Made by a program: the position numbers and the translations under genes
Sequence record: NC_018854.1
Length of the DNA stretch: 64,000 nucleotides
Direction: 5' to 3' (one strand)
Source: Escherichia phage ECBP1
Shown: positions 33,593 to 47,300 of the stretch, piece by piece
How positions within the stretch are numbered: the first letter of the stretch is position 1
Layout: the number at the start of each line of letters is the position of its first letter
The notes under the pieces: model-generated
The model's database searches: none
What the model was told of the DNA's origin: nothing
What the model saw: the letters and a program-made list of their open reading frames with translations, nothing else

Positions 33593-34010
33593 TATCGTGA
33601 AGGGTTCTGTTAGAATCCTTTGAGATAGGAACTCCTATCATAACCTTTCTTATCTTAATCTTTGCCGTATGGCACTGACGCTAGGGTTTATGCCCATCCG
33701 TCAGGTAGACTATTTTAAGAATGGGTTATCACAGAAAATGTAAAGCAACATTCGGGTTAATCAATGGCCTCTCCCTATAGGGGCCATTTCTGAATGATAG
33801 GCTATATCCCAAAGGTTAGTATCTTTGGGATAAGGCTTCAGATCCCTTATCAAACTAACCTCTCAATGTTGAGCATTTTAATCACATAAGCCCCTATATG
33901 GGCTGGGTTAAATGTCGGATAGCATAGCTACCTACAGCATCGAATTGTTAGGTCTTACATGCAACATAGGGTATAAAGGGAGGACTCGTCCCCTCCCTCC
34001 TATTATAATG

Positions 34011-34080
34011 GTCGAGGTAGCACGTAGGCATGTGCAGATGGTCGCTACTTCTCTCGCTGGTTCGAATCCAGCCCCCGACC
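34011..34080 (+). other. tRNA-like element (T-arm and acceptor present; no canonical anticodon arm)
   Basis: T-arm gctgg-ttcgaat-ccagc; 6 of 7 acceptor pairs; D-arm-like gcac-gtaggcat-gtgc; preceded by TATAAT. Confidence 0.3.
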
Positions 34081-34371
34081 TATTGACATCCTATCAATGA
34101 GTACATTAAGCTAACGTGCGGAGGTTTACACTATAGCTGGTGTAGGTGGAGAAGACGGCAGGGTAGCTACCTGTGCTTAGTGTACTCTTTGATAGTTTTC
34201 GTAAGCGATTATGCGGTTTTTTAGAAACGAACCAATAACATAAATGCAAACGATGATGTTGTTCTGATGGCAGCCTAATAAGCCAAGCGTCAGTCGGGAG
34301 TGAGTCGTCCTGATTATCAAACGACCATGGAGTGTCCTCGTCCGTGTATTAGAAACGGGGAGTTAATCAAT

Positions 34372-34450
34372 GGTGTGTGATAGCTCAAATAGGTAGAGCG
34401 TGAGGCTACAGTGCTGAATGGTTTGTGGGTTCGATTCCCACCCATGCCTA
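34372..34450 (+). other. tRNA-like element (D-arm and T-arm present; anticodon arm not foldable)
   Basis: D-arm tagctcaaataggtagagc; T-arm gtggg-ttcgatt-cccac; acceptor 6 of 7 with wrong spacing. Confidence 0.3.
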
Positions 34451-34516
34451 CAGTCCAGACGATATCTGAGTGACTATAAAAACAGATGGAGCCAGGTGGA
34501 ATCCCTGGCAATTAAT

Positions 34517-34582
34517 TCCGGTGTAGGTACTAGTGTCGTGCACGGCATAAGTGTTCTGGTTCGAGTCCAGACGCCGGAACCA
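34517..34582 (+). other. tRNA-like minihelix (acceptor + T-arm + encoded CCA; body too short)
   Basis: Acceptor tccggtg / cgccgga; T-arm tctgg-ttcgagt-ccaga; CCA encoded; only 31 nt between acceptor and T-arm. Confidence 0.3.
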
Positions 34583-34584
34583 AT

Positions 34585-34708
34585 TATCAGTTGCACGAGA
34601 TGGCTTGATATGTTCAAGTTTGGACTAAGTGTGACACCGCTAGATTGGAGAGCTGCTGCGGTAAGCTATAGACTCCAACCGGGGGTTCGAATCCCTCACT
34701 GATAACCA
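34585..34708 (+). other. tRNA-like element, about 121 nt with encoded CCA (too long for a canonical tRNA)
   Basis: Perfect 7-bp acceptor tatcagt / actgata; T-arm ggggg-ttcgaat-ccctc; CCA encoded. Confidence 0.3.
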
Positions 34709-35153
34709 ATTCAAAGTAGCATTGCACTAATCCATCCCGGAGTTCAAAGGCCAAACATGGAGCAGTGCTACTTTGAATTAGAAAGATTATGGGGGTAAGT
34801 CGTAACCATACGACGGCGTAAGTACCAGATGAGACTTCTGGACGCCCCTACCAGATTTGGGGTGTAACAGTTAAATCCAGTTGCCGGAAGTGCTATTCTA
34901 GATACGCTGCCAATGTGTGAACGGTAAGGCTGTACAGGACTCGGACTCCCGCCTCAAACCAAAGTCGCCAGGTACTTATGGCAAACGGGTAGTAACGAAC
35001 TAGTCATTCGTCAAACGCCCACCCTATTATGAGTCAGCAAGAACGCCTTCACTTAAACTTAAACAATATAAGCTTAACGCAATAATTATGTAGGGGTATG
35101 TAAGGATTGCGAAGAAGGAGCCAGTTAAAGTCTGGCATGACTCACTCATTTAT

Positions 35154-35227
35154 GCCCACTTAGCTTAGACGGGGAAAGCAACCGACTAATAATCGGAAGG
35201 TCACTGGTTCAAATCCAGTAGTGGGTA
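35154..35227 (+). tRNA. tRNA, canonical 74-nt cloverleaf; anticodon reads AAU (Ile) by standard numbering, unusual A34
   Basis: Acceptor gcccact / agtgggt; D-arm gctt-agacgggga-aagc; anticodon arm accga-ctaataa-tcgga; T-arm actgg-ttcaaat-ccagt. Confidence 0.6.
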
Positions 35228-35454
35228 CTTATTAATAGAGAACATAGTCCTGATTGCATTGCACTCTAAAGACAATGCCGGTGAGACAGTCCGGCACTCT
35301 AATTATTGAAAACATACCTAACGGTGTGAGTATGAGCAGACTATAATGCTCAATTACAGTTAACTATTATCGGACTATCAATCCTGTTTGCTGGTACAAG
35401 CACCGGTGGTAATAGTTAACTGGCCTAGCCTCGTTAGCTGCGTTAAAGCTACTA

Positions 35455-35484
35455 AGTCCCTCTTCGGAGGGACTTTTTTATTTG
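35455..35484 (+). terminator. intrinsic terminator ending the tRNA island
   Basis: agtccctc-ttcg-gagggact followed by ttttttattt. Confidence 0.65.
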
Positions 35485-35531
35485 AGTATTGATGAACGCA
35501 ATCATGCTTAAGTACAAATTCAAACCACTCT

Positions 35532-36542: not shown

Positions 36543-36571
36543 AGCCCCTCATTAGAGGGGCTTTTTCATTT
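36543..36571. terminator. bidirectional intrinsic terminator between the converging plus and minus blocks
   Basis: agcccctc-atta-gaggggct with an A-tract upstream and T-tract downstream. Confidence 0.65.
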
Positions 36572-39500
36572 AGTTAGTAAGGTTGAGCCAAGGGTTCAGG
36601 TTGTGGGCACGTAAGCCTTGACCGAAACCGAAGGAGTAACCGAGATTTCCCTGTGCAGCAATACTAAAGATGTTGTCCTGAATAGGCAGACCAACGTTAC
36701 CAAACATGGTAGGGGTTGGAGCCAACATAGCCATAGCAGCATGGACTGGGTTATTACGAATCATGGACACTGCAACTTTTGCAGAACGAATCTTAAAGTT
36801 ATAGAACCACATCAGACCAACACTTTCCATATACCCACGGAATCGACCAGGCAGACGGTCATAGTTAATGAACTCTTCCGTTACACGCCCCAGTGCTTCT
36901 TCACGAGTCTTACCTTTACGCTGAGTCAGTTCATCATAGATGATTGCTTTAGCAATAAAGTCAGAGTACTCAACCGTCTTCTGAATACCCTGGAAGAGAG
37001 CAGTATCCTTAGTGATAAGTGCATAGCGACCTGCGTTACGAACAGACTTAGGCAGCTTATCAGCCAGCTTTTCCATGTATTCGTGGAGTTTACCTTCAGT
37101 AATCAGGATGTCATCACGACCAATACCAGCATCTGCAATTGAAGAGAACTCACCAGCTTCCAACAGAGGCCAGATACTCAAACGTTTATGGCTATCAGAG
37201 ATGGACTGAATCTCAGCCTTGAGTTTACGAATCTGGTTCGGGTTAGTAGCTGCACGTAATTCTGCTTCTGCATCTACCTGACGCAGACGAGATTTCAGGT
37301 ACTGGTTAATCTCAGCAGTCTTCTGTGAAATGCTCTTAGCAATGTTCTTAACCGGTACACCACGAGCAACCATCTGATAAAGGTTAGCCAGGAAGTTAAC
37401 AGCAGGTACGACTACTGACTTAACCACAATCAGAGTCTTAGCTTCTTTAACTAAGTTCTGAACCAGGTTCTCACCACCCATTACATACTTATAGGCACGG
37501 TTGCCAAAGACACCCAGCATAGCTTTCTTGAAGGTATCCAGTGTTTCTGGTGACCAACGGGAATTACCAGACCAGGCATCACCTACAGAAGCTGCACGAT
37601 AACCCAGAGCATCGTTGAGCATGTCACGACGTACCCATAATTCACCCGGACCAAACAAACTTTCTGCTTTCTGACGGGTTTCACTGTTCATCAGCTTAAG
37701 TGCATCGGCAGTTACTGGGTCCAGTTTAGAACCAAGAAGGTTAACGTACTGGGACTTATTAGAAGCAGACATCTTAATGTCGTTCTCATACATGCTATGC
37801 AGGTTTTCAATCAGCATATCGTTGAATCGCTGAGCCTTAGCTTCTTCCACCTGACGACCACGCCATACACCGATTGCACGAGCAAGATGGTTCTCACCTT
37901 CAATGTGCTTCAGCATGTTAGGGTCAATGGATTGCTCATAAGCAACCACATTACCATTGGCATCATATACAGGCAGCAGTGGTTCATTACCACGTTCACC
38001 ACGAGCCAGTGCTTTAGTGATACGGTCTACGGAAGGCTTGTCAGTGATACGACCAGCTACCATGGTTCCCATAGTAAAGCCCGTACCGAGATCTACACCA
38101 CCAGCAGTATTACGAACGTTCTGTAAGATACCTTGCGAGAAAGGAGCCTGTGCCTGTACTGGTGCAAAGTAGTAGCTACGTGCTGGTCCACGATTAGCAG
38201 AGCTACCCTGATAAGTACCAAGACGTACATAGGATTTCTCAATCAAATCAGCAAACTGACTATCTTCAGCAACAATCAGGTTAACACCCTGCTTGTTCTC
38301 GCTAGGGATATACCCTTTGTACTGGTTCAAGGTTGCACGACTATCAGACTTAGCTTTAGCCATTTCATCTTTACGCTGACCAACCAGATAAGAAGTAGCA
38401 AAGTCCATGCCTTCAATTTCTGTCTGAGCCAGTGAAGATAACATCTCACGGTCAGTCTTATTCATTGCTTCCAGTGCATACAAAGTAATCAGTTTATCCA
38501 ACTGAGCTACATCTACAACAGAACGTGTAGTCTTACGTTCACCCAGTAAACGAGAAATTGCAGTAGCATTACGTAGCAGGTTGTTACCAACCGTACCTTT
38601 AATCATGTACTGAGCCAGTTGCTTAGATTTACGATTAATCAGAGGCCAGTTTCGTCCAGCTTGTTTCTGCAAATCTGCTTCCAGTTTATTAACCTCACGG
38701 TCAACAATCTTTTGGTCAGTCAGCAAGTCACGGATTTCATCCAGAGACATAGTGTCACGCAGAACAGCTAAGTCAGTTTTACCCATACCAGTATGCATTG
38801 CTTTCCACTCTTCATTAGTCAGCTTACGGCTGAACTTAGATGCGATAGTGGTAGGCAAGTGTTCACGGAACTGTTGACGGTCAGCCTGTACCTGTGCACG
38901 TACTGCCTTAATCAAATCATATACAGAAGCATTGCTCTTAGTACGTCCGATTATGTCATTAACCAGGTCATGGAAAGGTTGCCATACTTTACCCTGGTTC
39001 ATTGCAGCCATAACACCTTCGGCTACGATTGCACCATTCTTCTCTGTAGCAATAGCAGCTACCAGTTGTGCAGCATGAACAGCACCTTTGACCAATGGAT
39101 TCTTGGTATTAGCTGCAATTTCACGAGCACCTTCTAAAGCACGGGTAGACAATGCATCAATAGAGTCCACCAAATACTGGTTAGCACGGTCGATAGCATT
39201 ACCGGTAGGAGTAGCAACGGAATCATAGAAGGATTCTGCGTTAAGACTGGTCTGCATGATTGTCTGAGCTAATGCATCCATACCTTCCTGTACGTTAGTG
39301 GCTTTAGTATCACCTGCTACACGAGCGTTCAGACTAGCCATTGCAGCAGTACCGATGTTAGTCAGCATTGCATCAACAGTATTGCCGGATTTCTTATCTG
39401 CTTTCATGACAGGAATATCAGCCAGTACCTTACGTACCTCTTCACTTACCATTGCCAGACCAACAAAGGTAGGTAATAAGGAAGAGCGACCTTGAGCATC

Positions 39501-42500
39501 AAACTCAATGTTATTAGCACCCATGATGGTATCGAACTTCTGCTGTGCATAATAACGGTCAGCAGGGTTAGTACTATCCGGGTCAGCCATAAAAGCTTCA
39601 ACAGTCAGGTTCTTAGTAACATGTGTGTAGTATTCCTGTGCACGAGCCATAGCAGCTGGGTTAATAGCAGCCTCAGTAGCCAGTGCAGCAACAATGTTAG
39701 TAAAGAGGCGTTGTTCCTGCATATTCATGGTGAAGCCATGAGCCTGAACATCACGAGTTACTTTAGTTGCATTCACTACTGCATCAGAAAACTTACCTTT
39801 TCGAATTACTTGCTGTACTGGTTCTGAACCGATGTAGTCAGTAATCAGCTTATCAAAAGTCTTACCTAACTCTTCCAGACGAGTATTGTCACCATATGCT
39901 TTGTTATGGAACAGGGTAGTGTCTTTGGCCACAGCAGCAGTAGGAGCTTGTCCACGCATTACTACAGCAGAGTTAAACAGTAGGCCAGAGAACATATCAT
40001 CTGCATTAGCCGGAGCTTTCTTACGTCCAAATACCAGACGCTTGATTGCTTCATATACAGCCTGAACCATAGCTTTAAGTGCAGTGGTTTTCTTCTGCTT
40101 ACCAATCAATTCACGGTTGGTTAAGCCCCATGCCATGTACTCATTCAATGCAGCAGCTTTAGCCATTGCTGGTTCAATGAAGCCATTAGACAAATGACCA
40201 TTAATGGTATTGAGAGCATCAGCATATGCTTCACGTACTGCCGGGGGTTCATTCTTAACATCCAGAGTACGGAACTGGTTCATCAGGTCTTCAATGTTCT
40301 GGACTGCTTCATTAGGAGTGCCTTCATAGTGAGCCAGTACAGATTCAAAAGTAGAAGCATGAACCAATTCATGAACCAGAGTCTCTAAAGAAGGAGTAAC
40401 TAAATAGATGGTCTTATCATCAAAGTTAGTCCAGCCGTATGCATTACCTGCTTCAGCAGCTTCAATATCTTCCGGTGCTGGGCGAGTAATATTCTTCTCA
40501 ATAGCGTAGGCATCCAGTTGAGAAGGCGTACCATAAACAACCTTGTAGTCTTTAGCAGCAAGGGATTTCTGTACTTCTTTCAATACTGCTTGCTGTTCTG
40601 GAGACATCTCTTTAGCCAGCTTAGTGATAGCAGTATTGGACAACAGACGTACACCAGACTTCAGTACACGACCAACCTGTTCCATTGCCGGTACTTCTTT
40701 AGCTGGTTCTGCTTTAGCAGCACGTACTGCATCACGACGCTTATTTAATTCAGCATCAAACAGTTCGTTCAGCTTTGCTACTTGCTGGTCTACAGTCAGA
40801 CCTTCAAGAGAAATTTTACCGTCGTTCACATATGGAGCACCAACAGCAGCCATCTGGTCAACAGTGACTTGTACCTGGTTCATTACCTTGTGGCGAATAT
40901 CTACACCCAGAGCAATGTTACGCAGGTTACGTTCAATCTGTTCAGCACCAACACGTAACAGGTCATCAGTAGCACCTTCACGCTGGTCATATTCCAGAGC
41001 AGACTTAGCGATAGCCTGTTTGGTTTTATCAGACAGTTTGCTGAAGTCTACATTCTTCATGAACTTAGCGTAGGAGTCATAAACATTCTTGATAGGGTTA
41101 CCCTGCCAGGAAGTATATACAGCCTCATTAGCTTTACGACTTGCATCAGTAATGTCATTGATACCAATGTTCATACCATCAAAGATTTTCAGGGTATTCT
41201 TCGGAGCACCTTTCATAGTAGAAAGGGTCTGCATCATCATGCCATCACCAGTACCGATGGTCATAAATGGAATACCTGCTACACCTGCCTGTGAAGGAGC
41301 ATAGATGCTCATTGGCACACGCATACGGTCATCTAAGTTGGTAGCCAATACTTGGTTAGCAACATCAGTATTCTCACTACCAGCAATGTAGAAAGTCTGG
41401 GAACCAGTCTCAATCATTGGAGCCAATGGAGATAATGATTCCTGGATTTCATTCAATTCTTTCTGTGTTAAAAAATCACCCTTCTTCCATGTTGGGTCTT
41501 TTTCTTTTTCTGCCAGTTTCTCCTGAACACGTTGCTGGAACATGTCTTGCAGAACCAGAGATTGAATCTGGGTAGCTTTCTGCAAGTTCTCAGTAGAGTA
41601 CATCAGACCTTCACCCACGGTATTTCGGATACCAGTACGCATTGGTTCAACGAACAGATGGAGCATATTCTCCTGCAAGTTCTTCAGAGCATTACCTGAT
41701 ACAGTAAACTTCTGAGGGTCTAACTTACCAGTCAGAGCACCATCTACCTGCTGAATAGACAACTCACCTTTACGCATAACCGGAACATTACCAGTTAGTG
41801 CTTCCATAGAAGTAAGGAAAGTATCCAGCATAGCCTGAGCATCAGCCTCAGACGCAGCCTCCTTACCAAACATAGCCATAGCTGGGGAAATGCTAGGGTC
41901 AGCAGCACGGGCTTGTAGAACGTCACTGAATCGTTCATAGATGACATCAGTAATTGCACTAACCATTTTGCCTGCAATACCACGAGCACCAGAACCATAG
42001 ATGGTAATAGTCAGTGGGTTTTTAGCGATACCACGTTTCAGGTCCAGAGTACCATCTTCATTCAAATTAAAGTCTTTAATGAACAGGTCCATTAACTTCT
42101 GGAGATGGTTCATCTGGTTCATAACAGGAACGTTGTTACGGTAAGTACTACGTAATTCATTCAGTGCTTGTTGCAGACCATTAGTGGATGCTTCATACAG
42201 GTCAACGCTGTCCTCATGCGAATGATGCTCGTTCATGGTCTTACCAGCTTTACCGAAGAACAAACCACCTTTGGCAGTATTCTTAATCCAGTCTGGGGTG
42301 AACTTACCACCAGTCATTAATACCATTGCGTTGATTGGTCCGTTGGTTACACCATCAGCTTCAACGTACAGTGGGGTATTAAAGTTGGTACGGTCATCAC
42401 TGTTAAGGTAACGGGCATATTCCATCAGAGCCATAAGAGCTACGAATGATTTATCACTACCCAAAGAAGTCTTCAGAATATCCACTGCATCGGCAGGTAA

Positions 42501-45500
42501 GTGTCCAGACTTATCAAATTCAACCATCATATCAACGGCAGGTTTAAGTTTGCCTTCCAGAGCTTTAGTCAGCTCATCTGACATAACTTCACGGGACATT
42601 TTATGAACTTTGATACCCAATGCCTGAGCCAGTCCAAGCTGGAAGTCAGAGAACGTTTGACTGTTTTCATTACTTAAGTCGATGGTAGAGAAGGTTGGAA
42701 GGATTGCTTCACGAACCAGCTTACTGGATTGTGGGTTGTTCTTACCAAGCATCTGCATACGACCTACACGGGTCATGTTGTAGCCGTAGTGAATAGGTGT
42801 ATCCAGTCCATTCTCCTGTTCCTTAATTTGATTGATTACACCAAACAAGGAATCATACGCCATGGACACGGACAGGTTTTTACCTTCCAGAGACTTAGCA
42901 GTATTCACATTCAGCAATTCTGGATTAAGAGCACCAGCACCCATTAACTCCAGAATGTTGTCACAACCCAATGCTTCATAGAAATTAACCATCGGCATAT
43001 GTACACGAAACTCAGTAGCTTGTTCTGCTTTGAGAGCAGCTTTCTGTTCCGGGGTATTCTTAACAGCCGGGTTACGTAACTGAGTTTGAGCCACGGAAGG
43101 AATGTCATCACCCAGATACAATTTCTCTACTGGTTCTAAAAGGACAGTTTCCTCAATAGCAGTAGGGAATTTATTAATGGCATCGTTATCATCCAGCTTC
43201 TCAATGGTATACAGACCAACAGTCTTATTAGATTCTGGGTCAATCTCAGACACATCTAACATGGACTCTTTAACTTCACCCATCTCAATAAGGGAAGACA
43301 GAATCTCTGTAGCCATTGCCATTGGGATACCCTTGGTATACCCCAGAGGTGCATTAGGATTACGATTCAAACCCCAATAGGATTCAATCTTTTGAGCCAG
43401 TGAGTTAGTAGCTTCAACCAGGGTCTGAGCATTCTCGAAGTCAGCCAGAATACCTTCTGGTAGCAGAGATGCTTCCACACCAGTAATAGCAGCTACGTCT
43501 TTCATGTCTTTAACAGCAGCATTCTGTGTAGCAGTCAATCGCCATTGCAGACCAGCAAGTACAGCAGTTTCTAATAGCTGGTCATTGAACTTAAAGGTGT
43601 CACCATCTTTCTCTACGATGTTAAGTAACTTACCACCTACCCAACGGTTAGCCTCAGTACCTTCCGCAAAACGTTTACCAACGTTCTTGTTAGCAAGGAA
43701 CTTAGCCAGACGGTCAGACAGAGTAGTCTTCAGAGTTTCACCAAACTCAAATAAGTCCTGATAACGCTTAATCACATCACTTGTGAGAGCGTTATTTTCT
43801 TTTTGAGTGAATGCTTCAAAGCGAGCAGCAGAAGACAGTGCTTTCTTAACATCAGTCAAAGGAGATTCAGAACCAATGGTACGAGACTTAGGCTCTTCTG
43901 GTAGGGAAAATGCTTTAAGGAACTGGTTTGGTGTCTTATCATTATTATAGACAGGGAACACTGTTTCCATTTCCGATAAAGGTTTACCACCAACGGTATA
44001 GTCTGCTTTCAGTTGAGCCAGTGATACTTCTTCCTTCTCAACGTTATTGGTATTACGTTCAGACGTATCTACACCAATCTGAATAAGTGCATTGTTTGCT
44101 TCAACGAAAGATTGAACAGTATTGAATTGTTCAGCAGTCAGTTTCTGATTATCAAACAGTTGCAGAGATACAAATGGTTGCTCACTACCTTTATAGAAGG
44201 TAGAGCGAATAGCACCAGTATCCAGAGACATATCACGATAACCATCATGCCCAAATACGTCGGACAAGCTGATATGGTCGCCATTAGAACCAACCACAGT
44301 ACCATCAGCAAACAACCAAGGGCTTTCTCTACGGTCACCATTCTTATTAAGAGTTTCCTGTGAAATAGTATTTTCTTTCACATAAGCATCTCTTTCAGAT
44401 TCAGTAGTAGAGACTTCTTCTGCTTTTGGACTAGTCTCTTTAGTAGGAGCAGTCTTATTTTCTACCACTGGTTTATCTTTAGGCTGTACAGTAGTGGTGT
44501 CCTCTTGCACTAGTGCAGGAGTTTCATCAACCTGATTCACTGGTTCATTAGTCTGTTGAGACTGAGTGGCATCAAGACCACCTTGACGGAACTCTTTAAC
44601 TACCTGGGCAGCTGGCTTGTTCAGACGTGAATCCAACGAGGTAACTTTCACATGAGAAACATTAAGCTCCGGGTAAGCCGTAGCAAGTGCGTTAGCAATG
44701 TCAGCTACGGTCTTAGCTTCCAGTGCTACTTGCTGGGCAAACTTAACAGACTTGGTATCGTAAGGATTGACACCGAGGCCAGTACGACTACGTACCCATT
44801 CACGGGAAGGCGAGAGAGCCTGATAATGAACAGACTTATTCTTATCCGCATTCCCCGAAATCAGATGCTCATTCAACGCTCCGACCTTATTCTGCATGTG
44901 CTGGGCGAACTTCATAAAATCGCTCAGATAAGCGGAGGCCAAATCGAAGTTACCAGAGTTATACGCAGAACGAATGCGTTTCGCATGTTGCAACGCAGAG
45001 TACTGTCCTTCATTAGAACGAGACTCATCGGTTTTAATTTGTTTACTAACAATGTCTTGAGGACGTAAGCCTAGTTCTTCTGCTTTAGCGTCGAACTCTC
45101 GTGCACCCTGTAATAAGGCAGCAGCAGATTGCAGGGCAGCACGTTGACGATTCCCCAGTGTAATCTTACCTTCACTTGCATGTTTCAGAACCATGTTCAC
45201 TGAATCTGCATCCAGCACTTCTGGAGATACATCAGCAGCCATAGCAATGTTGTTTGCTTGGGCTTGATTAGCTTCTTCAGTAGCTTTCAGCTTACCCGCT
45301 TCAGCCTGTTCCTGAATCATGGAATGGATGGCACGAAATGCACGGAGTACTTTAGGGGTATTCTGTACGTTAGCCATCAGGCCGGAGAATTGGTCTACGA
45401 TTGCAGCAGCAGGGGAATCTTGTTCCAGATTAGCCAAAGCACCCGGGTCACGGTTAATGAAGCTATCCATAGACATGATATTGTCATACATCTGGATTGC

Positions 45501-47300
45501 AGCTTCCATTTGAACGTTAGGGTCTTCGGCAGTATTAACCAAGTCAGCCATCTTCTGAATAGCTTCTACACGGTTAGTGGAACCAGAAACAGCTTCACGG
45601 ATTGCTGGGTTAGTTTGTTCCAATTCTACCGGGTCAAACTTCATTGCTTGAGTTAAGTCAGCAGCATACTGGGTAGCAGCAGCTTTCTCTTCTGGAGAAA
45701 TATCCATTGCATCCACTGCTTCCTGAACAGTTGCTTGAGCTTGTTCTGCCTGAGCAGTAGCTTCTTGTGCAGCAGCGTTAACCGTAGCATCAGATACGGG
45801 GGATGCTTGTTCATTACGCTTAGCAACTTCTTCCCCACGTTGAACCAGGATGTTAGTAATAGGAGAAGCTACTTTTGCTAGTGCCTTACCAGCCAAAGAA
45901 GCACCAGCCAGGGTAGTACGTACAGCAGGACCAACGGCAGCACCAGCAGCCTTAACAGTTGCACCAGGAGCTTGAGCAACTCCAGCAGAACCGAAGCCAT
46001 ACAATGCACCAAGACCGGTTTGTTCACCCACACCTTTAAGCAAATCACGCTTAGCATCTACATTACCTTGAATTGCCTTGTTCTGTGCAAACTGACTTGT
46101 ACCAGACTGGATACCTTCTTCTACAGTCTCACGCAGCATGTTAGAACCAGCACCAGCCAGTGAACCTACCTTAAGTGGATTAAGTTCAAACTTGGATACC
46201 AGTGGACCAGTAAGAGCAGCAACCGGAGCAGTTAAGCCAGCAGCAGTAATACCCGTTTCAGATGCAGTCTGGCGACGTGCTTCTTCAGGAGATAAACCGT
46301 CTTTAATATGCTGTTGGTATACAGGAGATTTAGCAGCCAATTCACTGAATGGCATTTCCATAATTTCATTAGCAGTCTGTTGGTATGCACCACCAGCTTC
46401 CATACCACCAATTGCTATAGCAGGTGCAGCAACACGACCAGTAGCTAATGCAGTACGTGCAGGACGTGAACCTAACTCAGCAGCTAAGGTAATGCCTTTA
46501 ACAGCTTTATCACCACCTACCATTACTTTACCGAGTGCAGATACACCACGAATCAATGGACCGCCGGTAAAGAGAGAACCAACACCCTCAGCCAGACCAT
46601 CAGTAGCAGCCATGCCATTGGACAAGGTGTTAGCAACAGAATCGTAAGCATCTCGACCAATGCGAGACAGGGAAGCAACGAGATCACTTTCTCCTTTAGC
46701 AATATCCTGCTTATAGAGTTTCTCGTTTTCCTGTGCAGATATTACGTTCTGGTTCTGTACTACATTACGACGAGCATTTAATGCATCAGACTGTAGGTTG
46801 TGTACACCTTTATTCAACCAGTCAAGACCGGAAGCAATGGTTGCCCCGGCATTATCATTGACCAAGCCTGTACCAAGAGCAGCAATGCCCCCAAGAGTAT
46901 TAGCAACACCAAGACCAACACCAGAAAGGGTATCACCAAGTGCTTCACCATATGTACGACTCTTAGTTAAATCACGACGAACAGCATTAGCTGCATTGAC
47001 ACGAGCATTGAGAATGTCCATTCCTTGCTCATTGCCATACTTGTTTATGATTTCAAGAGGAGAGGCATTAGTAAAATCTGCCTGAAAAGAACCTGGGTCA
47101 AATGCACCAGCACCTAAGTTACCAGCACGGCCTGCCTGTAATTGGTAAGCGTTCTGTGGGGTTAGTTGGAAGGGGCTTTGCCCTTGTTCAGCTTGTTTCC
47201 GAGAGGTTGCAGTAGAGACATCGACTTGCTTAGCAGTAGTGATGCTGTCTGCGAAACCTGCCAGACGGTCAAATGTTGACATAGCATGATTCCTGTTCAA
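36570..47300 (-). CDS. virion-encapsidated RNA polymerase (N4 gp50-like giant vRNAP)
   Basis: 3576 aa; T7-like RNAP motifs LYVEADGVTNGPINAM, TITIYGSGARG and KIFDGMNIG in the central region. Confidence 0.85.
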   Translation of the reverse strand: MNRNHAMSTFDRLAGFADSITTAKQVDVSTATSRKQAEQGQSPFQLTPQNAYQLQAGRAGNLGAGAFDPGSFQADFTNASPLEIINKYGNEQGMDILNARVNAANAVRRDLTKSRTYGEALGDTLSGVGLGVANTLGGIAALGTGLVNDNAGATIASGLDWLNKGVHNLQSDALNARRNVVQNQNVISAQENEKLYKQDIAKGESDLVASLSRIGRDAYDSVANTLSNGMAATDGLAEGVGSLFTGGPLIRGVSALGKVMVGGDKAVKGITLAAELGSRPARTALATGRVAAPAIAIGGMEAGGAYQQTANEIMEMPFSELAAKSPVYQQHIKDGLSPEEARRQTASETGITAAGLTAPVAALTGPLVSKFELNPLKVGSLAGAGSNMLRETVEEGIQSGTSQFAQNKAIQGNVDAKRDLLKGVGEQTGLGALYGFGSAGVAQAPGATVKAAGAAVGPAVRTTLAGASLAGKALAKVASPITNILVQRGEEVAKRNEQASPVSDATVNAAAQEATAQAEQAQATVQEAVDAMDISPEEKAAATQYAADLTQAMKFDPVELEQTNPAIREAVSGSTNRVEAIQKMADLVNTAEDPNVQMEAAIQMYDNIMSMDSFINRDPGALANLEQDSPAAAIVDQFSGLMANVQNTPKVLRAFRAIHSMIQEQAEAGKLKATEEANQAQANNIAMAADVSPEVLDADSVNMVLKHASEGKITLGNRQRAALQSAAALLQGAREFDAKAEELGLRPQDIVSKQIKTDESRSNEGQYSALQHAKRIRSAYNSGNFDLASAYLSDFMKFAQHMQNKVGALNEHLISGNADKNKSVHYQALSPSREWVRSRTGLGVNPYDTKSVKFAQQVALEAKTVADIANALATAYPELNVSHVKVTSLDSRLNKPAAQVVKEFRQGGLDATQSQQTNEPVNQVDETPALVQEDTTTVQPKDKPVVENKTAPTKETSPKAEEVSTTESERDAYVKENTISQETLNKNGDRRESPWLFADGTVVGSNGDHISLSDVFGHDGYRDMSLDTGAIRSTFYKGSEQPFVSLQLFDNQKLTAEQFNTVQSFVEANNALIQIGVDTSERNTNNVEKEEVSLAQLKADYTVGGKPLSEMETVFPVYNNDKTPNQFLKAFSLPEEPKSRTIGSESPLTDVKKALSSAARFEAFTQKENNALTSDVIKRYQDLFEFGETLKTTLSDRLAKFLANKNVGKRFAEGTEANRWVGGKLLNIVEKDGDTFKFNDQLLETAVLAGLQWRLTATQNAAVKDMKDVAAITGVEASLLPEGILADFENAQTLVEATNSLAQKIESYWGLNRNPNAPLGYTKGIPMAMATEILSSLIEMGEVKESMLDVSEIDPESNKTVGLYTIEKLDDNDAINKFPTAIEETVLLEPVEKLYLGDDIPSVAQTQLRNPAVKNTPEQKAALKAEQATEFRVHMPMVNFYEALGCDNILELMGAGALNPELLNVNTAKSLEGKNLSVSMAYDSLFGVINQIKEQENGLDTPIHYGYNMTRVGRMQMLGKNNPQSSKLVREAILPTFSTIDLSNENSQTFSDFQLGLAQALGIKVHKMSREVMSDELTKALEGKLKPAVDMMVEFDKSGHLPADAVDILKTSLGSDKSFVALMALMEYARYLNSDDRTNFNTPLYVEADGVTNGPINAMVLMTGGKFTPDWIKNTAKGGLFFGKAGKTMNEHHSHEDSVDLYEASTNGLQQALNELRSTYRNNVPVMNQMNHLQKLMDLFIKDFNLNEDGTLDLKRGIAKNPLTITIYGSGARGIAGKMVSAITDVIYERFSDVLQARAADPSISPAMAMFGKEAASEADAQAMLDTFLTSMEALTGNVPVMRKGELSIQQVDGALTGKLDPQKFTVSGNALKNLQENMLHLFVEPMRTGIRNTVGEGLMYSTENLQKATQIQSLVLQDMFQQRVQEKLAEKEKDPTWKKGDFLTQKELNEIQESLSPLAPMIETGSQTFYIAGSENTDVANQVLATNLDDRMRVPMSIYAPSQAGVAGIPFMTIGTGDGMMMQTLSTMKGAPKNTLKIFDGMNIGINDITDASRKANEAVYTSWQGNPIKNVYDSYAKFMKNVDFSKLSDKTKQAIAKSALEYDQREGATDDLLRVGAEQIERNLRNIALGVDIRHKVMNQVQVTVDQMAAVGAPYVNDGKISLEGLTVDQQVAKLNELFDAELNKRRDAVRAAKAEPAKEVPAMEQVGRVLKSGVRLLSNTAITKLAKEMSPEQQAVLKEVQKSLAAKDYKVVYGTPSQLDAYAIEKNITRPAPEDIEAAEAGNAYGWTNFDDKTIYLVTPSLETLVHELVHASTFESVLAHYEGTPNEAVQNIEDLMNQFRTLDVKNEPPAVREAYADALNTINGHLSNGFIEPAMAKAAALNEYMAWGLTNRELIGKQKKTTALKAMVQAVYEAIKRLVFGRKKAPANADDMFSGLLFNSAVVMRGQAPTAAVAKDTTLFHNKAYGDNTRLEELGKTFDKLITDYIGSEPVQQVIRKGKFSDAVVNATKVTRDVQAHGFTMNMQEQRLFTNIVAALATEAAINPAAMARAQEYYTHVTKNLTVEAFMADPDSTNPADRYYAQQKFDTIMGANNIEFDAQGRSSLLPTFVGLAMVSEEVRKVLADIPVMKADKKSGNTVDAMLTNIGTAAMASLNARVAGDTKATNVQEGMDALAQTIMQTSLNAESFYDSVATPTGNAIDRANQYLVDSIDALSTRALEGAREIAANTKNPLVKGAVHAAQLVAAIATEKNGAIVAEGVMAAMNQGKVWQPFHDLVNDIIGRTKSNASVYDLIKAVRAQVQADRQQFREHLPTTIASKFSRKLTNEEWKAMHTGMGKTDLAVLRDTMSLDEIRDLLTDQKIVDREVNKLEADLQKQAGRNWPLINRKSKQLAQYMIKGTVGNNLLRNATAISRLLGERKTTRSVVDVAQLDKLITLYALEAMNKTDREMLSSLAQTEIEGMDFATSYLVGQRKDEMAKAKSDSRATLNQYKGYIPSENKQGVNLIVAEDSQFADLIEKSYVRLGTYQGSSANRGPARSYYFAPVQAQAPFSQGILQNVRNTAGGVDLGTGFTMGTMVAGRITDKPSVDRITKALARGERGNEPLLPVYDANGNVVAYEQSIDPNMLKHIEGENHLARAIGVWRGRQVEEAKAQRFNDMLIENLHSMYENDIKMSASNKSQYVNLLGSKLDPVTADALKLMNSETRQKAESLFGPGELWVRRDMLNDALGYRAASVGDAWSGNSRWSPETLDTFKKAMLGVFGNRAYKYVMGGENLVQNLVKEAKTLIVVKSVVVPAVNFLANLYQMVARGVPVKNIAKSISQKTAEINQYLKSRLRQVDAEAELRAATNPNQIRKLKAEIQSISDSHKRLSIWPLLEAGEFSSIADAGIGRDDILITEGKLHEYMEKLADKLPKSVRNAGRYALITKDTALFQGIQKTVEYSDFIAKAIIYDELTQRKGKTREEALGRVTEEFINYDRLPGRFRGYMESVGLMWFYNFKIRSAKVAVSMIRNNPVHAAMAMLAPTPTMFGNVGLPIQDNIFSIAAQGNLGYSFGFGQGLRAHNLNPWLNLTN

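What the first reader, a model, noticed from the sequence alone, without database searches (positions are those of the whole stretch)
34705..34870. Nested long inverted repeats suggesting a structured non-coding RNA
attcaaagtagcattgc pairs with gcagtgctactttgaat across about 38 nt (one mismatch). Just downstream is a cluster of short hairpins (gtcgta-acca-tacgac; ggcgt...ccaga-tgagact-tctgg...acgcc). This dense structure lies between the tRNA-like units and the intact tRNA and has no coding potential.
Basis: seen in the sequence. Interest (0 to 1): 0.45.

Follow-up and report, generated by a model that had tools for sequence, protein, structure and literature searches.

The report
Structured RNA modules in phage tRNA array
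The flagged stretch of this N4-like coliphage is real structured non-coding RNA, but it is two separate cassettes (a long hairpin with a three-way junction, and a 63-nt tRNA-like mini-RNA ending in CCA) sitting in the phage's tRNA gene array, next to a third, much more widespread RNA that also occurs in the leader of the phage lambda N gene.

Summary
The window is a Gamaleyavirus (N4-like; 99.5% identical to phages Bp4 and PD38). The finding lies in a 1.5-kb non-coding tRNA array between the gp47 and gp48 homologues. The array is read on the + strand and ends at a terminator at 35454-35485.

They do not form one nested RNA. They belong to independently assorting modules:

- **M1 (34708-34779):** an 18-bp basal helix capped by two small hairpins. 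This shape is kept in three sequence types.
- **Spacer (34780-34790):** contains the recurring leader AUUAU.
- **M2 (34791-34853):** an acceptor-type stem, two hairpins, a discriminator A and an encoded CCA. It has no anticodon arm and is not recognised as a tRNA.
- **M3 (34856-34964):** only its first 15 nt fall inside the finding. It belongs to an RNA family absent from Rfam, with very strong covariation. The family occurs in tRNA arrays of unrelated phages and in the lambda/434 N leader.

Most likely these are co-transcribed with the tRNAs and cut out by host RNases, like the T4 species 1 and 2 RNAs. M1 would be a processing hairpin and M2 a tRNA mimic. Their downstream function is unknown. 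The M1+M2 finding itself is of moderate interest; the neighbouring M3 family and a tmRNA-like tag frame are of higher interest.

The parts
34584..34708 (+). Upstream tRNA-like unit U4. It has an 8-bp acceptor-type stem (UUAUCAGU/ACUGAUAA), a T-arm (GGGGGUUCGAAUCCCUC), a long insert, and ends in an encoded CCA at 34706-34708. It sets the 5' boundary of M1.
   Evidence: Sequence; T-arm repeat family D1/D7; fold; ACCA|AUU boundary shared with unit U3 (D4).
34708..34779 (+). M1: long hairpin with a three-way junction.
- Basal helix: 34708-34725 with 34762-34779.
- Hairpin a: AAUCC (34729-34733) with GGAGUU (34739-34744), loop AUCCC.
- Linker: CAAAGG.
- Hairpin b: CCA (34751-34753) with UGG (34758-34760).
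34780..34790 (+). Spacer AGAAAGAUUAU. Its AUUAU directly precedes the first G of M2, as UUUAU precedes the first G of tRNA-Ile. Inferred to be a 5' leader or processing site.
   Evidence: ATTATG occurs 4 times in 34000-35250, against 0.43 expected from the window-wide frequency, each time just before a unit.
34791..34853 (+). M2: 63-nt tRNA-like mini-RNA.
- Acceptor-type stem: GGGGGU (34791-34796) with GCCCCU (34844-34849).
- Hairpin 1: GUCGUA-ACCA-UACGAC (34799-34814).
- Linker: GGCGUAAGUA.
- Hairpin 2: CCAGA-UGAGACU-UCUGG (34825-34841), a 5-bp stem and 7-nt loop in the T-arm position.
- Discriminator A at 34850 and encoded CCA at 34851-34853.
   Evidence: The MFE of the isolated 63 nt is exactly this fold, -22.3 kcal/mol. 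Pair counts. CM R2 scores 95.6 bits.
34856..34964 (+). M3: member of a widespread phage RNA family. Only 34856-34870 lies inside the finding.
- P1: UUUGGGGUG (34856-34864) with CGCCUCAAA (34951-34959), followed by CCA at 34960-34962.
- Invariant core: CGGAAGUGC ... GCUGCCAAU.
- Side hairpin: GGA-CUCGGAC-UCC.
   Evidence: CM R1 gives 109.3 bits, E 4e-29, and it is the only hit in the window. Covariation. Homologues.
35154..35228 (+). Intact tRNA-Ile (anticodon AAU). It fixes the strand of the array.
   Evidence: ARAGORN; Rfam tRNA at 64.8 bits.
35454..35485 (+). Intrinsic terminator (a 9-bp GC-rich stem followed by a T-run) that closes the non-coding array on the + strand.

Best explanation
The interval 34705-34870 covers two separate cassettes of a punctuated, tRNA-array-type non-coding transcript of an N4-like phage, plus the start of a third.

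**Shown:**
- M1 is a 72-nt element with a long basal helix closed by a three-way junction.
- M2 is a 63-nt tRNA-like mini-RNA: an acceptor-type stem, two hairpins, a discriminator A and an encoded CCA.
- Both lie on the tRNA strand, both keep their fold across related phages, and they assort independently.
- Units in the array are separated by recurring ...ACCA|AUU... and ...AUUAU|G... boundaries.

**Inferred:**
- The whole array is transcribed as one precursor that ends at the terminator at 35454-35485.
- Host enzymes cut it into small stable RNAs, as happens for the phage T4 tRNA cluster and its species 1 and 2 RNAs.
- RNase P would cut at G34791 of M2. RNase E or exonucleases would trim the A/U-rich spacers.
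- M1's long helix brings the 3' end of unit U4 next to the 5' leader of M2. It would serve as a double-strand processing or protection hairpin, most likely an RNase III site.
- M2 would then behave as a tRNA mimic that cannot decode, being a substrate for RNase P and for CCA maintenance. What it does after that (for example acting as a decoy for tRNA-directed host factors) is speculation.
For: **Context**
- The window matches Bp4 and PD38 at 99.4-99.6%.
- N4 has the same gp47-gp48 non-coding gap, holding four tRNAs.
- The tRNAs and T-arm repeats are on the + strand and the terminator is at 35454-35485.

**M1**
- The inverted repeat is confirmed, with z = -6.1.
- Types B and C fold as a basal stem plus two hairpins as their minimum-energy structure.
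- A hand-made structural alignment of 11 sequences shows 6 pairs with changes on both sides. One pair of hairpin a appears as U-A, G-C and A-U in the three types.
- Within the three types, 13 of 22 variable columns fall in the 23% of positions that are unpaired (binomial p = 3e-4).
- There are more G.U wobbles than A.C mismatches on the + strand reading, 19 against 10 cells.

**M2**
- The tRNA-like fold is the minimum-energy structure of the isolated RNA.
- 99.4-99.5% of cells are paired. G4-C to A4-U is compensated in three phages.
- The IMG/VR contig L144 supplies three further compensated pairs in hairpin 2. Its hairpin-1 sequence also differs throughout yet still appears to form a hairpin by eye; this was not quantified.
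- None of 500 shuffles reach the observed covariation.
- The 5' and 3' ends are shared with the alternative cassette X, whose genuine T-arm occupies the position of M2's second hairpin.

**Punctuation**
- ATTATG is enriched about 9-fold, and four units end in ACCA|A.

**Independence**
- In E20 and K57alpha1.2, M2 follows a tRNA-like ACCA end directly, with no M1.

**Precedent**
- T4 rnaC and rnaD are annotated as small stable RNAs in the T4 tRNA cluster.
- RNase III positively regulates lambda N mRNA (PMC9032294). The neighbouring family M3 is that lambda N-leader element.
Against: - There is no expression or cleavage data of any kind.
- M1's lower stem carries uncompensated A.C mismatches: basal pair 7 is unpaired in 8 of 11 sequences.
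- The M1 structural alignment is hand-made, so it leans towards the proposed structure.
- M2 homologues are 92% identical on average, so covariation is thin. The competing GGCGU/ACGCC stem is equally compatible with the data.
- M2 lacks a canonical T-loop and D-loop, so recognition by RNase P is not assured.
- Many related phages lack M1, M2 or both, so neither is essential.
- Neither shows homology to T4 rnaC or rnaD beyond 10-13 nt.
- RNase III specificity cannot be predicted from sequence.
Confidence: 0.6

Rival explanations
1. These are decaying remnants of tRNA genes and spacers with no function of their own. The hairpins are leftovers that persist because the array turns over by cassette loss and gain.
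For: - The array is highly mosaic, and M1, M2 and M3 are each missing from several close relatives.
- M1's lower stem has uncompensated A.C mismatches.
- M2 looks like a stripped-down version of cassette X and shares its ends.
- ARAGORN and Rfam call degenerate tRNA-like units nearby.
- Published N4-like genome papers list odd or undetermined tRNAs here.
Against: - Substitutions avoid stems (p = 3e-4).
- M2 keeps 99.5% of its pairs, with four compensated pairs.
- M1 keeps the same three-helix shape through about 72% sequence identity, with compensatory changes.
- The encoded ACCA and the AUUAU leader are retained.
Confidence: 0.2
2. This is the first reader's view: the whole 34705-34870 interval is one structured non-coding RNA built from nested inverted repeats.
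For: - The modules are contiguous and sit on the same strand.
- The joint fold has z = -4.3.
Against: - The modules assort independently, and M2 is replaced by cassette X.
- M2 is closed by its own terminal stem and ends in ACCA.
- The 3' end of the interval belongs to a separately defined family, M3.
- The predicted inter-module hairpin CGCCCC/GGGGUG is broken in ST4 and PGN829.1 (sequences).
Confidence: 0.07
3. M1 acts at the DNA level. It would be a palindrome serving as a protein-binding or recombination site, a cruciform, or a hairpin promoter of the N4 type, rather than an RNA structure.
For: - The 5' arm is invariant in all 11 variants while the 3' arm drifts.
- Module boundaries sit at or near the arms.
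- N4 biology uses DNA hairpin promoters (from memory).
Against: - U.G pairs in the structure are mismatches in DNA.
- The inner hairpins covary.
- There is no second copy in the 64-kb window.
- N4 virion-polymerase promoters are 5-7-bp stems with 3-nt loops at the genome's left end (from memory), which is unlike an 18-bp helix with a 36-nt interior.
Confidence: 0.05
4. M1 is a transcription terminator or attenuator within the array.
For: It is a very stable hairpin (-28.7 kcal/mol).
Against: - No U-tract follows it; the next bases are AGAAAGAUUAUG.
- The terminator scan finds none here, but finds a canonical one at 35454-35485.
- A tRNA gene lies downstream on the same strand.
Confidence: 0.03

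Closest known systems
Phage T4 small stable RNAs: species 1 (rnaC, 139 nt) and species 2 (rnaD, 119 nt)
   Same: - They are non-tRNA structured RNAs encoded inside a phage tRNA cluster, on the tRNA strand and directly abutting tRNA genes.
- rnaC has a T-arm and an acceptor-like end, like unit U4 here.
- Their function is still unknown (from memory).
   Different: - There is no sequence homology. The best matches are a 13-nt T-loop and a 10-nt GGTAAGTCGT.
- M1 has no CCA end, and M2 is half their size and has no canonical T-loop.
- Expression of M1 and M2 has not been shown.
RNase III processing hairpins (T7 early-region sites, lambda N-leader site)
   Same: - M1 is an 18-bp near-perfect RNA helix with an interior junction.
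- It sits in a spacer between units of a polycistronic RNA and brings the flanking RNA ends together.
- The neighbour M3 belongs to the same family as the lambda N-leader element. By my recollection that element holds the RNase III site. PMC9032294 confirms only that RNase III positively regulates N mRNA.
   Different: - Cleavage has not been tested.
- Types B and C carry A.C mismatches in the helix.
- M1 has no sequence similarity to the lambda element: R1 finds only M3 in the window.
tRNA (RF00005), tRNA minihelices and the tRNA-like domain of tmRNA
   Same: - M2 has a terminal 6-bp stem followed by A-CCA.
- A 5-bp/7-nt hairpin lies next to the 3' strand of that stem, with U at loop position 1 and A at position 5, as in a T-loop.
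- Its 5' leader resembles that of the adjacent tRNA-Ile.
   Different: - It has no anticodon arm, no D-loop GG and no GTTCRA T-loop.
- tRNA models do not detect it, even at E up to 10.
- G3.U70 is absent, apart from one variant.
The M3 family (lambda/434 N-leader element and its copies in phage tRNA arrays)
   Same: - It is adjacent to M2, on the same strand, in the same array.
- It is likewise closed by a terminal helix followed by A-CCA, and bounded by CCA|AAUU-type junctions.
   Different: - M1 and M2 are confined to Gamaleyavirus-like phages.
- M3 is found in Schitoviridae, Certrevirus, Gelderlandvirus, other 150-170-kb phages and lambdoid prophages of 530 of 5426 E. coli genomes.

Membership tests
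tRNA (Rfam RF00005 / ARAGORN) | Detected by a tRNA covariance model or ARAGORN as a four-arm cloverleaf with an anticodon loop | tested here: not met
   ARAGORN calls nothing in 34705-34870. Rfam gives no tRNA-clan hit there, even at E up to 10.
tRNA (Rfam RF00005 / ARAGORN) | Acceptor stem followed by a discriminator base and CCA | tested here: met
   M2 has GGGGGU/GCCCCU followed by A and CCA (34844-34853). Pairing is kept in 98.7% of cells, with a compensated G-C to A-U change. M1 has none.
tRNA (Rfam RF00005 / ARAGORN) | T-arm with a GTTCRANNC loop, and a D-loop with GG | tested here: not met
   M2's second hairpin has a 5-bp stem and a 7-nt loop, but the loop reads UGAGACU, UGAAACC or UGAGACC. 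There is no D-loop.
T4 species 1/2 stable RNAs (rnaC/rnaD) | Encoded within a phage tRNA cluster on the tRNA strand | tested here: met
   (T4 annotation), and the array map.
T4 species 1/2 stable RNAs (rnaC/rnaD) | Sequence homology to T4 rnaC or rnaD | tested here: not met
   blastn with word size 7 finds only 10-13-nt matches, with E of 0.008 or higher.
T4 species 1/2 stable RNAs (rnaC/rnaD) | Accumulates as a discrete, processed, stable RNA in infected cells | not testable with these tools
   No expression data are available.
RNase III processing hairpin | A continuous or near-continuous RNA helix of roughly two turns within a precursor | tested here: inconclusive
   In type A, M1 has an 18-bp helix with one U.G, plus a possible 5-bp extension. 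Types B and C have one or two A.C mismatches.
RNase III processing hairpin | Cleaved by RNase III | not testable with these tools
   This needs an enzyme assay or RNA-end mapping in an rnc mutant.
Intrinsic terminator | GC-rich hairpin followed by a U-run | tested here: not met
   The scan reports no terminator at M1 or M2.
M3 family (CM R1: lambda N-leader-type element) | Match to CM R1: terminal helix P1, helices P2 and P3, the invariant core CGGAAGUGC/GCUGCCAAU, and a side hairpin | tested here: not met
   R1 has a single hit in the window, at 34856-34964. M1 and M2 do not match. The last 15 nt of the finding belong to that hit.
Dispersed repeat / MITE | Multiple copies in the genome | tested here: not met
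   Only the two arms of M1 match, allowing up to 3 mismatches in 64 kb.

The most novel reading that the evidence does not exclude
The gp47-gp48 array of N4-like phages may not be a tRNA supplement with debris. It may instead be a toolkit of translation-machinery mimics:
- tRNA-like mini-RNAs ending in CCA (U3, U4, M2 and cassette X);
- a tmRNA-like tag-coding RNA whose peptide is conserved (ANDDVVLMAA / ANEEAYLMVA);
- the M3 element shared with the lambda N leader.

On this reading, M1 and M2 are functional parts that are released by host RNases. They would then act as decoys or competitors for host tRNA-directed enzymes or defence nucleases.
Probability: 0.15. Interest if true: 0.8.

Novelty: new variant of a known kind. 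Interest (0 to 1): 0.5.

Why it matters
Annotated N4-like genomes list only two or three odd tRNAs in this 1.5-kb gap. In fact the gap is filled end to end with conserved, punctuated RNA modules.

If M1 and M2 are processed RNAs, phage tRNA arrays beyond T4 carry non-tRNA passengers. These would be cheap to test with one RNA-seq experiment and three RNase mutants.

Following this finding also exposed two further things:
- An RNA family absent from Rfam 15 links the classical lambda N-leader structure to tRNA arrays of at least four unrelated phage groups.
- A conserved tmRNA-like tag frame lies in the same array.

Both would change how these regions are annotated and what the lambda N leader is thought to be.

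Tried and rejected
- **Rfam.** Scans at gathering threshold and at E up to 10 gave nothing for M1, M2 or M3. The only hit was a chance mir-228 hairpin match at E 0.07.
- **tRNA detection.** ARAGORN finds no tRNA or tmRNA in the interval.
- **Homology to T4 rnaC/rnaD.** Rejected.
- **IMG/VR scan with the 14-mer arm.** It returned almost only chance hits, which wasted a scan.
- **Gapped two-arm scan.** It found no M1 type beyond A, B and C. An M2 pattern scan added one sequence.
- **RNAalifold on the MAFFT alignment of all M3 relatives.** It recovered only the invariant core and the side hairpin, because the subfamilies are out of register. This was solved with a hand-drawn structure on a subfamily plus a covariance model.
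- **MAFFT alignment of M1 (A5).** The three types come out in different registers, so the tool-based pair count was not used. A hand alignment was counted instead.
- **Micro-ORF idea for the recurring AUUAUG.** Rejected: the frames differ in length (10, 10, 18 and 1 codons) and the M2 frame is broken by a 2-nt indel.
- **The third hairpin of the MFE fold (CGCCCC/GGGGUG).** It is not conserved.
- **Terminator and dispersed-repeat readings.** Both rejected.
- **Literature.** Searches for the lambda N-leader RNase III site coordinates, and for any description of these modules, found nothing usable beyond a citation of Kameyama et al. 1991.
- **The tmRNA-like piece.** Its architecture could not be resolved.

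Full report
**Where this is.** The 1.8 kb around the finding is 99.4-99.6% identical to Escherichia phages PD38 and Bp4 (Gamaleyavirus, Schitoviridae). It lies between the homologues of N4 gp47 and gp48, upstream of the convergent giant virion RNA polymerase gene at 36570-47300 on the minus strand. Phage N4 has the same 1.5-kb non-coding gap, holding four tRNA genes. In the window, ARAGORN calls three tRNAs on the + strand (34010-34081, 34373-34451, 35154-35228). Only the last, tRNA-Ile(AAU), reaches the Rfam threshold. Five T-arm-like GGTTCGAATCC motifs are spread over the array (D1/D7). A canonical + strand terminator sits at 35454-35485. The finding therefore lies inside a + strand, non-coding, tRNA-array transcription unit. 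Published descriptions of N4-like genomes mention only the tRNAs.

**The observation.**
- The long inverted repeat has arms at 34708-34725 and 34762-34779, 18 nt each, 36 nt apart. Its one non-Watson-Crick position is U.G in RNA.
- The arm occurs nowhere else in the window; 0.07 matches are expected by chance.
- The region folds far better than shuffled controls (z = -4.3). M1 alone gives z = -6.1.
- No + strand ORF of 25 aa or more overlaps it.

**It is modular, not nested.**
- blastn against 50,697 phage records splits the 200 nt into pieces that occur separately: 34700-34791, 34788-34855 and 34855-34900.
- A presence/absence table over 20 related phages (sequences) shows the pattern. M1 occurs without M2 in 24-32N, EC1-UPM, U1G, pSb-1 and phi G17. 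M2 occurs without M1 in E20. M3 is absent from EC1-UPM, U1G, phi G17, Jgk1 and Kpn16-P2.
- M2 is never found together with a 115-nt cassette 'X'. Cassette X occupies the same slot and shares M2's first and last 9-10 nt.
- Boundaries fall at recurring short motifs. Units end in ACCA followed by A(A)UU, and units begin after AUUAU. ATTATG occurs 4 times in 1.25 kb, against 0.43 expected.

**M1 (34708-34779).**
- Three sequence types exist (A, B and C). Their interiors are only about 72% identical, yet types B and C fold as their minimum-energy structure into the same shape: a long basal helix plus two hairpins.
- In type A, the substitutions seen among four phages fall in the loops of the same three-way-junction model. 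They do not fit the alternative UCCAU/AUGGA extension.
- In a hand-made structural alignment of 11 sequences, six pairs change on both sides and stay paired. One pair of hairpin a appears as U-A, G-C and A-U in the three types.
- Within types, 13 of 22 variable columns lie in the 23% of positions that are unpaired (p = 3e-4).
- Against a strict structural constraint, basal pair 7 is A.C or A.A in 8 of 11 sequences. The 5' arm is invariant while the 3' arm drifts.
- G.U pairs outnumber A.C mismatches on the + strand reading, which matches the orientation of the tRNAs.
- No U-tract follows the hairpin, so it is not a terminator.

**M2 (34791-34853).**
- Taken alone, the 63 nt have as minimum-energy fold a terminal 6-bp stem (GGGGGU/GCCCCU), hairpin GUCGUA/UACGAC and hairpin CCAGA/UCUGG, followed by A-CCA.
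- Among 11-13 homologues, 99.4-99.5% of cells are paired.
- Five of the six terminal-stem pairs vary and stay paired. G4-C69 becomes A4-U69 in three phages.
- The divergent copy in L144 supplies three compensated pairs in hairpin 2. By eye, its different hairpin-1 sequence also still forms a hairpin.
- None of 500 shuffles reach the observed covariation. These alignments are shallow, and A6 is fitted to the model.
- The GGCGU/ACGCC stem is also fully compatible with the data, but shows only wobble-type changes. The two may alternate.
- The second hairpin (5 bp, 7-nt loop, U at loop position 1 and A at position 5) sits where cassette X has a true GGTTCGATTCC T-arm.
- The leader AUUAU|G resembles UUUAU|G before tRNA-Ile.
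- M2 is not a tRNA by any detector.
- Its covariance model finds it only in Gamaleyavirus-like phages, with a weak echo in unit U3.

**M3 (34856-34964), the neighbour that the finding's last 15 nt belong to.**
- blastn with this piece hits N4 at 98%. It also hits Certrevirus phages between tRNA-Glu and tRNA-Asp, and Gelderlandvirus S16-type phages directly after tRNA-Gln.
- A pattern on the invariant core (CGGAAGTGC, 8-16 nt, GCTGCCAAT) retrieved about 40 true copies from IMG/VR. These included lambdoid prophages.
- The prophage form maps to the lambda/434 N leader and is present in 530 of 5426 complete E. coli genomes, unannotated.
- With a hand-drawn structure, 94.6% of cells pair and 17 of 28 pairs have compensatory changes, against 32-43% pairing when the partners are slid.
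- Covariance model R1 finds exactly one copy in the window (109 bits, E 4e-29). It also finds all the other types, including lambda itself at 35382-35495 on the minus strand. That lies between nutL and the N coding sequence, which by my recollection starts near 35360; the J02459 record instead annotates an older 133-aa N frame from 35438 that overlaps the element (33.8 bits).
- On the model-based alignment, 23 of 28 pairs show compensatory change.
- No Rfam family covers it.
- By my recollection this lambda structure is the RNase III site of the N leader (Kameyama et al. 1991). PMC9032294 confirms only that RNase III positively regulates N mRNA.

**Mechanism.**
- *Shown:* structure, strand, conservation pattern, modularity and punctuation.
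- *Inferred:* co-transcription and cutting by host RNases into small RNAs, by analogy with the T4 tRNA cluster. That cluster carries the annotated stable RNAs rnaC and rnaD.
- M1's helix joins the CCA end of unit U4 to the leader of M2, just as P1 of M3 joins its own flanks. This is the geometry of an RNase III processing hairpin.
- M2 has the minimal features of an RNase P and CCA-enzyme substrate, but cannot decode.
- I put 0.6 on this reading as a whole. That breaks down as about 0.8 that these are selected RNA structures in the array transcript, about 0.5 on the named enzymes, and 0.15 on a decoy-type function.
- The main rival is tRNA-derived debris without function (0.2).

**Verdict.** It is a new variant of a known kind, namely non-tRNA passengers of phage tRNA clusters. 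The finding itself is of moderate interest. The adjacent M3 family and the tmRNA-like tag frame are of higher interest.

Noticed in passing
window 34856-34964 (+); lambda J02459 35382-35495 (-); L125 2495-2603; L126 2510-2618: An RNA family that is absent from Rfam. It has an invariant core (CGGAAGUGC ... GCUGCCAAU), a terminal helix followed by A-CCA, and a side hairpin. It occurs in tRNA arrays of N4-like, Certrevirus, Gelderlandvirus and other 150-170-kb phages, and as the N-leader structure of lambda/434 (530 of 5426 E. coli genomes). Covariation is very strong: 23 of 28 pairs are compensatory.
   Followed up: yes
window 34247-34282 (+), with a hairpin over the stop codons up to about 34300: A tmRNA-like tag reading frame, GCAAACGATGAT...GCAGCCTAATAA = ANDDVVLMAA**.
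- It is conserved as a peptide despite many nucleotide changes: ANDDVILMAA, ANDDVVLMVA, ANEEAYLMVA and ANNETYLMVA. In unrelated ~155-kb phages it reads ANDDVVLMAA or ANDNTFLAVA.
- It is nearly always preceded by AUAAAU.
- Rfam tmRNA_permuted scores 33 bits against a threshold of 47.
- ARAGORN calls no tmRNA.
- The architecture is unresolved.
   Followed up: partly
window 34091-34111 / 34175-34195: A second long inverted repeat: 21-nt arms, 90% complementary, 63 nt apart. It lies just upstream of the tag frame. It is present in PGN829.1, U1G, pSb-1 and AN24P2 at 94-98% identity. It may be a counterpart of M1.
   Followed up: no
window 34519-34585 and 34584-34708: Two tRNA-like units (U3, U4), each with a long acceptor-type stem, a T-arm and an encoded ACCA, but no anticodon arm. 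The 34450-34585 stretch containing U3 is 96% identical (U3 itself 99%) between N4 and this Gamaleyavirus. A spurious 94-aa ORF at 34418-34702 runs across them.
   Followed up: partly
L199 1587-1702 (phage 24-32N); also L201, L202, L203, L005, L192: Cassette X is a ~115-nt element with two GGTTCGATTCC T-arm motifs. It replaces M2 in the same slot and shares M2's terminal-stem sequences. The two are mutually exclusive across 20 phages. ARAGORN and Rfam do not call it a tRNA.
   Followed up: partly
window 34208, 34786, 35026, 35085 (ATTATG); 34231, 34579, 34705, 34958 (ACCAA): Recurring punctuation of the array. AUUAU|G precedes units, about 9-fold more often than the window-wide rate. ACCA|A ends units. 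These are probably processing signals.
   Followed up: partly
L125 2546-3127 (S16 gp75); L218 1-1927 (K57alpha1.2): Public annotations place protein-coding features over these RNA elements. Examples are 'hypothetical protein gp75' in Salmonella phage S16, and pseudo 'virion structural protein / tail spike' features in K57alpha1.2. These are probably mis-annotations.
   Followed up: no
window 34373-34451 and 35154-35228: The phage tRNAs are predicted with A34 anticodons, Cys ACA and Ile AAU, which are unusual for bacteria. The 'tRNA-Cys' and the 'tRNA-Ala' at 34010-34081 do not reach the Rfam tRNA threshold.
   Followed up: no
L214 422-535 (lambda): Lambda's own copy of the M3 family is slightly degenerate. 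The core reads CCGUAAGUGC instead of CCGGAAGUGC, and the side hairpin is weakened. It scores 33.8 bits, against 56 bits for the 434-type prophage copy.
   Followed up: partly
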